In this document: positions 29,001 through 32,000 of the stretch, in pieces
Numbering within the stretch: the first letter of the stretch is position 1
Layout: every line of letters begins with the position of its first letter
Assembly (NCBI GenBank): GCA_963851265.1
Contig: CAWKNZ010000002.1
Span: 1,216,001 to 1,280,000 of the forward strand
Direction of reading: 5' to 3'
Source of the DNA: an uncultured Gemmatimonadales bacterium
Lineage (GTDB): Bacteria > Gemmatimonadota > Gemmatimonadetes > Gemmatimonadales > Gemmatimonadaceae
DNA length: 64,000 bases
Position numbers: made by a program

Positions 29001-32000
29001 CGTCGCCGTGCTCGCACTGCGCGAACCCCGGCGCATGTTCGGCGCGCGCGTCGTCGAGCGCGCCGAGCCGGCCGCGGCACTGTTCGACCTCGCACTCGCC
29101 CGCTTCGCGGAGCGCGACGCGCGCGTCGAAGCGGTCGAGACGCTCGAGACGGTCACGCGTCGCGTGCACGGCGAGTACGTTCGCAAGTTGAATGGGCTCG
29201 AGAGCGAGCTGGCGGCGCTCCGCTCGGCCGGCGTGGACCCGCTCCGACGCCCTGCGCCGCCGGCCGAGCGCCTCGGCGCCGAGCGCGCCGTCGCGCAGGC
29301 GGCAGAGCAGGTGCGCCGGGCCGAGCGCCGGACCGAGCTGCTCGAACAGCAGCTCGCCGCGAGCGGAGGGCAGCTCGCGCAGGCGCAGCTCGAATCGCAC
29401 CGGCGCGGCGAGGCGCTGCGTCAGACCGAACGCACGCTCTACCTCCTCGACCGGGTGCTCGGGCTCGACGCGGCAGCGACCGACCCCCAGCAGCTCGCCG
29501 ACGGCCTGCTCGCGCTCGTCGGCGACGACATGCAGGCCCAACGTTGCTCGCTGGTCCTCCGCGCACCCGACCCGGGCTGGCTGTACCTCGCGGCGGCGCG
29601 GGGCGTGGCGCCGCACGTGCTCGACGGCGTCCGCATCCGCATGGGCGAAGGGGTCGCGGGACGCGTCGCGGCGGCACGCGAGCCGCTGCTCGTGCGCGAC
29701 GTGCGTGACGCGAGCGCGCACCCCCTGCTGCACGATCAGTATTTCACGATGGGCAGCTTCATCAGCTTTCCGCTCGTCTACCACGACGACCTCGTGGGCG
29801 TCGTGAATCTGACGAACCGGTCGTCGGCCACGTCCTACAGCGAGGACGACGTGGATCGCGTGCGCCTGCTCGCGCTCGTGATCGCGCTCGTGGCCACGCA
29901 CGCGCGGCTCCCCGAGCGCCTCGCCGCGGACAATCCCCGGCTCGCGTGGACGCCGGCGGGCGCCGGCGAGGCCGCGGCGGTGCCGGCGGTCGGCGTTTGA
30001 GGCGGGTCGGCGTGCGCGATCGCGCGACGGCGGGCGGCCGATGAGCTCCGCGGCTGCGGTCGCGGGCGGCGCGCCCGCCGCGCCTCCGGACGCGCCGGCG
30101 GCCCCGCTCCGCGCGGCGCTGCGCGAGCTGGCCGCCGGTCGCGCGGTCCGACCGTCGGACGTCACCGACGCCTTCGAGGTCGTGATGCGCGGCGAGGCGA
30201 CGCCCGCCCAGATCGCCGCCCTGCTCATGGGGCTCCGGGTGAGGGGCGAGACTGCGCCGGAGATCGCCGCCGTCGCGCGCGCGCTGCGCGCCGTGATGGT
30301 TCGGTTGCCCGCGGACCGCCCGGAGGCGCTCGTCGACACGTGCGGCACGGGCGGTGGCGCGATCAGCACGTTCAACATCTCGACCGCCGCTGCACTGGTC
30401 GCCGCCGGGGCCGGCGTGCGCATCGCGAAACACGGGAACCGCTCGTTCACGTCCCGCTCGGGGAGCGCCGACGTGCTCGAAGCGTTAGGCGTACCCGTGG
30501 ATCCGACGGTGCCGGAAATGCAGCGCGCGCTCGCGTCGGCGGGCATCGCCTTCATGTACGCGCCGCGGATGCACCCCGCGATGCGGCATGTGGGCGCGGT
30601 GCGGCGGGAACTCGGCGTGCCGACGGTGATGAACGTCGTCGGCCCGCTCGCGAATCCGGCGATGGCTGGGCGTCAGGTGGTCGGCGTGGCCGATGCGCAC
30701 CGCGCGCCGCTCATCGCGGGCGCGCTCGCGGACCTCGGCGCCGTACACGCGCTCGTCGTGCACGGTGAGCCAGGTCTGGACGAGATCTCGCCACTCGGAC
30801 CGACGCACGTGTACGAGGTTCTCGCCGACGGCGGCGGAGGTGATCCCGCCGCGCGGCCGGTCGCGCGGGAGTGGACGATCAGGCCCGAGGCGCTCGGGCT
30901 CCGCGTGAACGACGCGTCGGACCTGGCCGGCGGCGAACCGGCAGAGAACGCCCGGGTCGTGCTCGACGTGCTCGGCGGCGGCGGGAGCGCGGGAGCGCGC
31001 GCCGCGGTGTTGCTCAACGCGGGCGCCGCGGTCTACGTGGCCGGACTCGACGCGACGTACGAAGCCGCCGTCGAGCGCGCACGGGCGGCGCTCGACGGCG
31101 GCTTGGGGTTACGAACGCTGGAGCGGCTGCGGGCGGCGTACGGCGCGTAACCGCGACGGCGGCGCGCCCGCGCCGTGCTCTCAGAAGCGACGGAGCACCC
31201 CGACGACGACGCCCTGGATGCTGATGTCGTTCTCGTGCACGTAGATCGGCTCCATCGTCTCGTTCGCGGGCTGCAGGCGAATGCGGCCGTCGCGCTCGCG
31301 GTAGAACTTCTTCACGGTCGAGGACCCGCCCGCCGCGCCCTGGGTCATCGCGATCACCATCTCGCCGTTGTCGGCGCTGCGACGCTCGTTGACGACGACG
31401 AAATCGCCGTCGTGAATGTGCGCGTCGACCATCGACTGCCCGCGCACCTTGAGCACGTAGTGGGAGCCGCTCTTGCGAAGGAAGCTCTCCGGCACGGTCA
31501 TCGTCTCGCCTGAGGCCATCGACTCGATCGGCACGCCGGCCGCGACGGCGCCGAGCACCGGCAACTCGACCGCGCGCGGATAGACGTCCGTCTCGAGGAT
31601 CTCGATCGCGCGGCTCTCGTTGTAGCTCCGCTTGATGTAGCCCTTCCGCTCGAGGTTGCTCAGGTGTTCGTGGACCGTGGCCAGCGAGTTATAGTTGAAC
31701 GCCTCGGCGATTTCTTCGAAGCTCGGCGCGAAGCCGTTCGTCTGCGAGTAGCTGCCGAGGTAGTTGAGGATCTCGCGCTGGCGCTTCGTGAGCGGCATGG
31801 GGGCTCCCGGGCCGAGCGGCCCGTCGGTCCGCGGCCCGAAGGTCGCGGTAGGTGCAGTCAGACCCGGCTCGGGGCGATCCGTCGCCGGCGGGGCAGGGCG
31901 AGGACGGAAGCCAGTGGATGGCGTGCGTCCGCGTGTCACCCGAACAGTCGCCGAAAACGCTAGCCGAAGATCGGCCGAAGTGCAAGGAAGCCGTGGACGC

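What a model noticed while it worked through the whole genome (the two positions that open the first line are those of the whole stretch)
31181..31990. SOS box of Gemmatimonadales: a new direct-repeat LexA motif TTCGG-N6-TTCGG
The LexA (g01256) of this lineage is predicted to bind a direct repeat TTCG(G)-N6/7-TTCG(G) (11-bp period), not a palindrome. Two tandem boxes lie before lexA and single boxes before recA, uvrA, ruvB, imuA-imuB-dnaE2, both DNA-repair radical SAM genes and a Rad52/Rad22-family gene, plus g00422, g00459 and a DUF3072 gene. It is a further case of direct-repeat LexA binding, distinct from the alphaproteobacterial and Balneolaeota motifs.
Evidence so far: Seen in upstream regions; of 37 non-coding TTCG-N7-TTCG sites 9 precede lexA(2), recA, uvrA, ruvB, imuA, g01837, g03073, g00902; other spacings precede at most two repair genes each and the motif is the top spaced repeat in an unbiased count. 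Footprinting: box within 300 nt of 27 of 27 lexA orthologues (26 with two boxes 24-30 nt apart) and 15 of 15 recA genes of Gemmatimonadales, own genome included; 0 of 15 recA in more distant families; control spacings 0-1 hit per region.
(Added by a program. Inside this text positions count along the whole contig: contig position 1,216,001 is position 1 of the stretch shown here. "Call 12" and the like, gene names such as g00115 and contig names such as C1 are that model's own, and its searches are not shown. The text may have been shortened before it was handed on; [...] marks where a part breaks off. The agent that wrote the report below was given it as the finding of a first reader that could run no searches.)

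Follow-up and report, generated by a model that had tools for sequence, protein, structure and literature searches.

The report
Gemmatimonadota LexA box, shared with Patescibacteria
A short repeated DNA signal in front of DNA-repair genes is almost certainly the docking site of the damage-response repressor LexA across the phylum Gemmatimonadota; the same signal and a related LexA occur in Patescibacteria, so it is a known kind of switch in a new phylum rather than a new invention.

Summary
Confirmed. Two TTCGG-N6-TTCGG boxes lie before lexA, the first filling the -35/-10 spacer. Boxes also precede recA, uvrA, ruvB, imuA-imuB-dnaE2, both repair radical-SAM genes, Rad52/22 and DUF3072.

Two corrections. 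(1) The box is phylum-wide, not Gemmatimonadales-only: 57 of 57 lexA promoters in the class, and 15 of 18 recA promoters in other orders. The other class has TTCGC (11 of 12 lexA), matching a Glu-to-Lys change in LexA's recognition helix. (2) It is probably not an independent motif. A Gemmatimonadota-trained matrix hits 25 of 31 Patescibacteria lexA promoters, 24 in the same position. Their LexA groups with Gemmatimonadota LexA (98/93), and alphaproteobacterial LexA joins them (93/87 to 98/97). A direct-repeat Patescibacteria motif was published in 2017, but I could not read it.

Added targets: a second Rad52-like operon (box in 19 of 25 loci) and dinG. The ruvB box was not found in 26 relatives. 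No binding or induction data exist here. No paper on this phylum's box turned up in nine searches. This scan noted the motif three times before on other DNA.

The parts
31181..31798 (-). lexA, canonical SOS repressor (winged HTH + S24; Ala87-Gly88 cleavage site, Ser122/Lys163; recognition-helix Glu44)
   Evidence: TIGR00498 203 bits, cut-off 111; G88, S122, K163 invariant in 50 rows; model matches LexA structures
31964..31979 (-). SOS box 1, TTCGG-N6-TTCGG, filling the 17-bp spacer between the -35 and -10 elements
   Evidence: TTG..box..TA geometry in 30 of 30 family, 8 of 9 order, 14 of 18 other-order, 10 of 12 other-class and 24 of 31 Patescibacteria lexA promoters
31940..31955 (-). SOS box 2, TTCGG-N6-TTCGG, just downstream of the -10 element, over the inferred transcription start
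   Evidence: a second box in 30 of 30 family promoters
31980..31985 (-). Inferred -35 element (TTGCAC) of the lexA promoter
   Evidence: Conserved TTG; near-consensus TTGACT in other-class relatives; not detected by the consensus scan
31957..31962 (-). Inferred -10 element (TAGCGT) between the two boxes
   Evidence: Conserved TA...T pattern; TATAAT-like in other-class relatives; inferred, not mapped
32101..32901 (+). trpC (IGPS), divergent neighbour sharing the intergenic region; context, not thought to be the regulated gene
   Evidence: PF00218
30041..31150 (+). trpD-like gene (glycosyl transferase family 3), convergent neighbour; context
   Evidence: PF00591, PF02885

Best explanation
TTCGG-N6-TTCGG (tolerating TTCGC, TTCGT, TTTGG in one half) is the operator of the canonical LexA throughout Gemmatimonadota. 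A LexA dimer is inferred to sit on two head-to-tail half-sites 11 bp apart, on one face of the helix. At lexA, box 1 fills the -35/-10 spacer and box 2 covers the start region, blocking sigma-70 RNA polymerase. After DNA damage, RecA filaments trigger self-cleavage at Ala87-Gly88 (Ser122/Lys163). This releases lexA, recA, the imuA-imuB-dnaE2 mutasome, uvrA, two repair radical-SAM loci, two Rad52/22-type annealing-protein loci, DUF3072 and probably dinG. The half-site is the Gram-positive GTTCG-type half-site set as a direct repeat, and this LexA belongs to the same lineage as the main Patescibacteria LexA, which uses the same box. Shown: sites, placement, conservation, covariation, tree position. 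Inferred: binding, repression, cleavage, induction, dimer geometry.
For: lexA promoters carrying the box: 30 of 30 family, 9 of 9 order, 18 of 18 other orders, 11 of 12 other class. It is the top spaced dyad in unbiased scans. recA: 21 of 25 in the class. A matrix trained only on other genomes gives 20 of 3794 genes at score 17 or more, against 0-3 for 8 column-shuffled matrices; recA, ruvB, both radical SAM genes, lexA and Rad52 rank in the top 10. The box occurs in either orientation at recA and at the Rad52-like operon, as an operator would. Covariation: Glu44 LexAs have G as fifth base in 221 of 226 half-sites; Lys44 LexAs have C in 33 of 36 and G in none. Glu44 aligns with E. coli Glu45, a DNA-contacting residue (PMC3091678 passage). 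In the Lys44 class, TTCGC boxes also precede a Y-family polymerase and a umuDC-like pair. Patescibacteria: 25 of 31 promoters score 15 or more; alphaproteobacterial 0 of 16; Bacteroidota-phylum 0 of 30. Trees.
Against: No binding, induction or start-site data; the RNA run search gave only 5% word shares. The consensus promoter scan found no promoter. Four repair genes chosen without looking at sites (uvrB, recN, dinB, ruvA) have no box within 300 nt. The ruvB box is absent directly upstream of ruvB in 26 of 26 other genomes; operon heads were not checked. recA has no box in 15 of 15 other-class genomes. Five of the 17 strict non-coding sites lie before genes with no repair link or none at all. 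The Glu/Lys covariation is one evolutionary event, and Glu44 lineages often have TTCGC in the first half of recA boxes (57% of 21).
Confidence: 0.92

Rival explanations
1. The box is bound by the second LexA-family protein (contig C2:1641029-1641676) rather than by the canonical LexA.
For: The paralogue passes TIGR00498 (165 bits) and keeps a DNA-binding domain and Ser/Lys-like residues.
Against: 0 of 9 paralogue promoters carry a box. The paralogue forms a separate clade with a different recognition helix. At E 1e-20 it was seen in only a minority of 121 genomes (weak copies may be missed). The box tracks the canonical LexA at residue 44 and into Patescibacteria, whose boxed LexAs group with the canonical protein.
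Confidence: 0.03
2. The repeat is the site of a non-LexA damage regulator (for example a WYL or HTH activator), or a recognition element of an alternative sigma factor, that also controls lexA.
For: Direct repeats with 10-11 bp period are common for activators (general knowledge). No binding was tested.
Against: The box lies inside the -35/-10 spacer and over the start, which is repressor geometry. It works in both orientations at orthologous promoters. It covaries with LexA's recognition helix and follows the LexA clade across phyla: 2 of 10 divergent Patescibacteria LexAs have a box, and these two fall in the boxed clade.
Confidence: 0.04
3. It is a LexA box, but Gemmatimonadota evolved direct-repeat binding independently from a Gram-positive-like LexA, and the likeness to Patescibacteria and Alphaproteobacteria is convergence.
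For: The GTTCG half-site is already the Gram-positive half-site (PMC9578287 Table 1 passage), so parallel switches could give similar boxes. LexA is short (about 200 columns), Alphaproteobacteria are a long branch, and my outgroups lacked Chloroflexota, Cyanobacteria, Acidobacteriota, Thermotogota, Balneolales-labelled and most Deltaproteobacterial LexAs.
Against: Gemmatimonadota + Patescibacteria 98/93; three-way group 97, 96, 93/87 and 98/97 in four trees. AU tests reject Gemmatimonadota with Bacillota/Collinsella (p 0.0024), with an Ignavibacteria-like Bacteroidota clade (p 5e-6), and Alpha with Gamma (p 0.0048). A shared Glu after the cleavage site (PIE) occurs in 28 of 33, 30 of 31 and 7 of 10 rows against 0 of 67 others (the pattern failed to parse some rows).
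Confidence: 0.2

Closest known systems
Patescibacteria LexA and its SOS box (Sanchez-Osuna, Barbe and Erill 2017, Environ Microbiol 19:3465; seen only as reference 52 of PMC7739468, cited there among direct-repeat LexA motifs; paper not held)
   Same: From my own data: the same TTCG(G)-N6/7-TTYG(G) direct repeat, in the same place in the -35/-10 spacer of lexA, and a LexA at 38-46% identity that groups with Gemmatimonadota LexA.
   Different: Patescibacteria sites are more AT-rich and relaxed (TTTGG in the second half in 39%), and a second box is rarer and often inverted. The Gemmatimonadota regulon seen here includes imuA-imuB-dnaE2, radical SAM and Rad52-like genes. Whether the published consensus is literally this motif could not be read.
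Alphaproteobacteria / Acidobacterium LexA box GTTC-N7-GTTC (passages of PMC8565304, PMC3323433, PMC9578287)
   Same: Direct repeat, 11-bp period, TTC-N8-TTC core. Recovered here as a control at 14 of 16 alphaproteobacterial lexA promoters. Its LexA joins the same tree group with moderate to strong support.
   Different: The conserved flanks differ: G before TTC there, GG after TTC here (G before TTC in only 15% and 42% of halves). 0 of 16 alpha promoters score with the Gemmatimonadota matrix. The recognition helix and linker differ.
Gram-positive LexA box CGAAC-N4-GTTCG (PMC9578287 Table 1 passage)
   Same: The half-site is essentially the same, the recognition helix is similar (S..TVH.HL), and these LexAs are the sister group (93/83).
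   Different: Palindrome, not direct repeat: the equivalent inverted dyad occurs in 0 of 30 family lexA promoters.
Balneolaeota LexA direct repeat TTACACATATTTTWTACATA (PMC7739468 passage)
   Same: Direct-repeat LexA operator with a regulon of recA, translesion polymerases, a helicase and a radical SAM protein.
   Different: Unrelated sequence. No Balneolales-labelled LexA was identified in my trees, so the relationship of the proteins is untested.

Membership tests
Canonical LexA repressor | Winged-HTH N-domain plus S24 C-domain, above the family cut-off | tested here: met
Canonical LexA repressor | Ala-Gly cleavage site and Ser/Lys dyad | tested here: met
   A87-G88, S122, K163
Canonical LexA repressor | RecA-dependent self-cleavage | not testable with these tools
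   Needs biochemistry
SOS box / LexA regulon | Operator overlapping LexA's own promoter, conserved across orthologues | tested here: met
SOS box / LexA regulon | Same operator before recA and translesion/repair genes | tested here: met
   not before uvrB, recN, dinB or ruvA here, nor before recA in the other class
SOS box / LexA regulon | Direct sequence-specific binding by LexA and induction by DNA damage | not testable with these tools
   Indirect only: covariation at residue 44; no usable RNA runs
Patescibacteria-type LexA box | Same dyad, period and promoter position as at Patescibacteria lexA genes | tested here: met
   (sample: the 30 best-scoring of 76 matching genomes, plus one)
Patescibacteria-type LexA box | LexA protein in the same clade | tested here: met
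   98/93; within a three-way group with Alphaproteobacteria (98/97)
Patescibacteria-type LexA box | Identity with the experimentally defined 2017 consensus | not testable with these tools
   Paper not held; consensus not given in the papers read
Alphaproteobacterial GTTC-N7-GTTC box | Direct repeat with 11-bp period and TTC core | tested here: met
Alphaproteobacterial GTTC-N7-GTTC box | Invariant G before TTC; cross-recognition of sites | tested here: not met
Alphaproteobacterial GTTC-N7-GTTC box | Common ancestry of the direct-repeat LexA proteins | tested here: inconclusive
   Grouped in four trees and AU p 0.0048 against Alpha+Gamma, but a long branch and sparse outgroups
Gram-positive CGAAC-N4-GTTCG box | Palindromic arrangement | tested here: not met
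   0 of 30
Balneolaeota box | TTACA-type repeat consensus | tested here: not met
   Compared with the consensus quoted

The most novel reading that the evidence does not exclude
Direct-repeat (11-bp, TTC-N8-TTC) DNA binding by LexA arose once, from a Gram-positive-like LexA that kept its half-site, and spread by lateral transfer among Patescibacteria, Gemmatimonadota (acquired before the phylum diversified, unlike the LexAs sampled from phylum Bacteroidota) and Alphaproteobacteria, rather than arising independently several times. Within this lineage one recognition-helix residue (Glu or Lys at position 44) sets the outer base of the box (TTCGG or TTCGC), a single-residue code testable by swapping it.
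Probability: 0.5. Interest if true: 0.68.

Novelty: new member of a known kind. Interest (0 to 1): 0.5.

Why it matters
It supplies the SOS operator for a whole, abundant and little-studied phylum with cultured members, so its damage regulon can be predicted and tested at once. It points to lineage-specific SOS members: two Rad52/22-type annealing proteins, a Cys/His-rich small domain, and DUF3072. If the tree holds, it turns the 'repeated independent invention' of direct-repeat LexA binding into one event plus transfer. It also gives a culturable model (Gemmatimonas, Gemmatirosa) for how a LexA dimer reads head-to-tail sites; no PDB title indicates such a complex. It is still a familiar regulator with a motif type already known from Patescibacteria, and it was noted three times before in this scan.

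Tried and rejected
Window-level counting is uninformative (4 against 2.92). The sigma-70 consensus scan found no promoter. Cluster look-up of ten 46-50% LexA representatives gave no organism names, so other phyla in the direct-repeat clade could not be named. The phage collection gave only distant LexAs. No complex prediction was run: DNA cannot be included and LexA dimerisation is textbook.

Rejected: restriction to Gemmatimonadales; a palindromic reading; regulation aimed at the divergent trpC (the box recurs at unrelated loci); Bacteroidota hits of the pattern scan as SOS boxes (mostly 11-bp tandem arrays, none with lexA); ruvB as a conserved member (1 of 27, three unpublished genomes left out); the gene at C2:296331 (DUF429-like by Atlas features) as a conserved member (0 of 2 homologues). 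The gene at C2:255103 was found in only 2 of 61 genomes, both with the box.

Three papers were not held: the 2016 Verrucomicrobia paper, the 2017 Patescibacteria paper and the LexA-DNA structure paper.

Full report
1. Observation. The window holds lexA at 31181-31798 on the minus strand (205 aa). It has Pfam LexA_DNA_bind and Peptidase_S24 domains and TIGR00498 at 203 bits against a cut-off of 111. It lies between a trpD-like gene and trpC. Two TTCGG-N6-TTCGG boxes lie at 31964-31979 and 31940-31955. The closest named proteins are LexAs of Gemmatirosa and Roseisolibacter at 81-83% identity, so the genome is a Gemmatimonadaceae member. The count in the window alone is chance-level (4 against 2.92).

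With my own gene calls (3794 genes), TTCG-N7-TTCG has 43 non-coding sites against 14-34 at other spacings. The strict form has 17 of 23 sites non-coding, against 0-6 elsewhere and 10 at N19. Of these 17, nine precede repair loci: lexA twice, the imuA operon, uvrA, ruvB, Rad52/22, two TIGR03916 radical SAM genes, and the operon described in paragraph 4. Two precede DUF3072, one an orphan, and five precede genes with no repair link or none. recA has TTCGT-N6-TTCGG.

2. Promoter anatomy. In 30 of 30 family lexA promoters (the 30 best-scoring of 58 matching genomes; one of them, L023, is from an unpublished genome; 29 of 29 without it) there are two boxes in the same orientation. The first always lies between TTG and TA. 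In this genome it fills a 17-bp spacer between TTGCAC (31980-31985) and TAGCGT (31957-31962). In the other class the flanks are near-consensus, TTGACT and TATAAT-like. The consensus scan did not detect the promoter here, so the assignment rests on conservation. An unbiased scan of all 4-mer dyads ranks the N7 direct repeat first at 30 of 30; the inverted dyad of the Gram-positive box occurs in 0 of 30.

3. Range. I fetched 39 lexA orthologues from the 121-genome phylum sample. The box is at 9 of 9 in the order and 18 of 18 in other orders of the class. In the other class it is at 11 of 12 (the miss has a truncated upstream region) and reads TTCGC. For 40 fetched recA promoters the box is at 6 of 7 in the order (one truncated), 15 of 18 in other orders (six reversed) and 0 of 15 in the other class. 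82 have lexA directly downstream: 78 labelled Gemmatimonadota (including Longimicrobiales), 2 unlabelled and 2 Patescibacteria. The Bacteroidota hits are mostly tandem arrays, none with lexA.

4. Regulon. A matrix trained only on other genomes gives 20 of 3794 genes with a site scoring 17 or more, against 0-3 for eight column-shuffled matrices. recA, ruvB, both radical SAM genes, lexA and Rad52 rank 3-10, dinG/yoaA 17, uvrA 23, and a second uvrA is weak at rank 37. The imuA site scores 22.9. uvrB, recN, dinB and ruvA have no site within 300 nt.

Conservation of individual targets: DUF3072 has the box in 8 of 8 homologues, five exact and three with TTTGG in the second half. Rad52/22 has it in 3 of 5 exact, one near match and one without. 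A second, divergent Rad52/22-like gene follows it: 7 of 7 orthologues tested pass PF04098, while the own copy is below the cut-off. The box is within 1300 nt in 19 of 25 loci (three of the six misses have truncated flanks; one hit is weak), reversed in most. Against: the ruvB box is found in 1 of 27 class genomes (this one) and the DUF429-like gene's box in 0 of 2 homologues.

5. Which protein binds. The paralogue is also a TIGR00498 member, but 0 of 9 paralogue promoters have a box. A tenth hit, L320, has a Gram-positive-type LexA and box and may be a contaminant contig. The paralogue forms a separate clade. Residue 44 of the canonical LexA aligns with E. coli Glu45, listed as DNA-contacting in PMC3091678 (passage); that it reads the outer C of the half-site is recalled, not from a call. 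Glu44 goes with TTCGG in 221 of 226 half-sites and Lys44 with TTCGC in 33 of 36, never G. This fits Glu reading C and Lys reading G on the other strand (inference). In five Lys44 genomes the TTCGC pattern gave 13 hits against 9 for the control: six at lexA, one before a Y-family polymerase, one before a umuDC-like pair, and five unassigned. The TTCGG pattern gave 6 against 6. This is one evolutionary event, and TTCGC is tolerated in recA boxes of Glu44 lineages, so it is supporting, not decisive.

6. Comparison. In 31 Patescibacteria lexA loci (the 30 best of 76 matching among 101 genomes, plus one) TTCG-N7-TTCG is the top dyad (15 of 31 exact; other spacings 0-1). 25 of 31 score 15 or more with the Gemmatimonadota matrix, against 0 of 16 alphaproteobacterial and 0 of 30 Bacteroidota-phylum promoters. 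24 of 31 show the same TTG-box-TA geometry. Of ten more divergent Patescibacteria LexAs, the two with a promoter box fall in the same clade and the other eight do not. The alphaproteobacterial control returned GTTC-N7-GTTC at 14 of 16.

Trees: the three direct-repeat groups join at SH-aLRT 97 (106 rows, quick) and 96 (FastTree with Bacteroidota-phylum rows added). They join at 93/87 with Gemmatimonadota + Patescibacteria at 98/93 (64 rows, careful), and at 98/97 after dropping three long rows and thinning (43 rows). Gram-positive LexAs are the sister group. AU tests reject Gemmatimonadota with an Ignavibacteria-like clade (my label from promoter and GC content, unverified; p 5e-6), with Bacillota/Collinsella (p 0.0024), and Alpha with Gamma (p 0.0048). 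These groupings were named after I had seen the first trees. Two sequence signatures agree. Outgroup sampling is sparse, so the three-way single origin is a hypothesis; the link to Patescibacteria is firmer.

7. Literature. Nine searches found no description of a Gemmatimonadota SOS box; the eight papers with both 'Gemmatimona' and 'LexA' were seen as listings only and are on other topics. Passages were read in PMC7739468 (Balneolaeota motif; states that direct-repeat recognition appears to have evolved independently several times, citing the Patescibacteria paper), PMC8565304, PMC9578287, PMC3323433, PMC3091678 and PMC8607333. The supplements of the first two were searched for 'Gemmat' and 'Patesci' with no hits. 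The 2017 Patescibacteria paper, the 2016 Verrucomicrobia paper and the LexA-DNA structure paper are not held; the first bears directly on novelty. Subscription journals, theses and RegPrecise were not searchable.

8. Verdict. A real SOS operator, very probably of the canonical LexA (0.92), phylum-wide, and apparently undescribed for this phylum. It is a new member of a known kind: the Patescibacteria-type direct-repeat box. Binding, repression and induction are inferred. Interest 0.5; the single-origin and single-residue-code reading would merit about 0.68 at even odds.

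Noticed in passing
window 30041-34810: lexA sits antisense inside a tryptophan-synthesis gene cluster, between a trpD-like gene and trpC-trpF; upstream sequences of many class relatives look like the same divergent trpC start.
   Followed up: partly
G000:C2:1177634-1179656 (L348, L036); relatives L355-L379: Boxed two-gene operon: a low-complexity Lys/Arg/Ala-rich ORF ending in a Cys/His-rich domain (found in 27 of 61 family genomes), then a divergent Rad52/22-family gene. A candidate lineage-specific damage-inducible annealing module.
   Followed up: partly
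G000:C5:296062-296092 (L042): Three TTCGG half-sites in 11-bp phase before the DUF3072 gene; the box is kept in 8 of 8 homologues, suggesting DUF3072 is an SOS gene here.
   Followed up: yes
G000:C2:1646248 and C5:288634: A TTCGG-N6-TTGGG site before a DinG/YoaA helicase and a weak site before a second uvrA; the genome has two UvrA genes above the family cut-off.
   Followed up: partly
L380-L405: A group of LexAs in phylum Bacteroidota (low GC, possibly Ignavibacteria) has a conserved palindrome AGTG-N10-CACT, usually twice, at 17 of 30 lexA promoters: a candidate SOS box I did not look up.
   Followed up: no
L048, L070, L311-L319: A conserved second LexA-family clade in Gemmatimonadota with a distinct recognition helix and no box at its own promoter; its target is unknown.
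   Followed up: partly
L094, L115, L131, L155 and other Bacteroidota loci: Tandem arrays with an 11-bp unit containing TTCG, unrelated to lexA, are common in Bacteroidota genomes.
   Followed up: no
L116 (Ca. Falkowbacteria), between the boxes and lexA: A short ORF lies between the boxed promoter and lexA; it looks like a four-helix-bundle insertion gene (recalled resemblance, not scanned).
   Followed up: no
L264, L282 and many 430-830 aa hits: LexA-like N-terminal regions fused to long C-terminal extensions occur among Patescibacteria-type hits; the two examined have no box.
   Followed up: no
L320 (G055:C97): A Gram-positive-type lexA with a CGAAC-type palindrome on a 1.7-kb contig of a Gemmatimonadaceae genome; possible binning contamination or transfer.
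   Followed up: no
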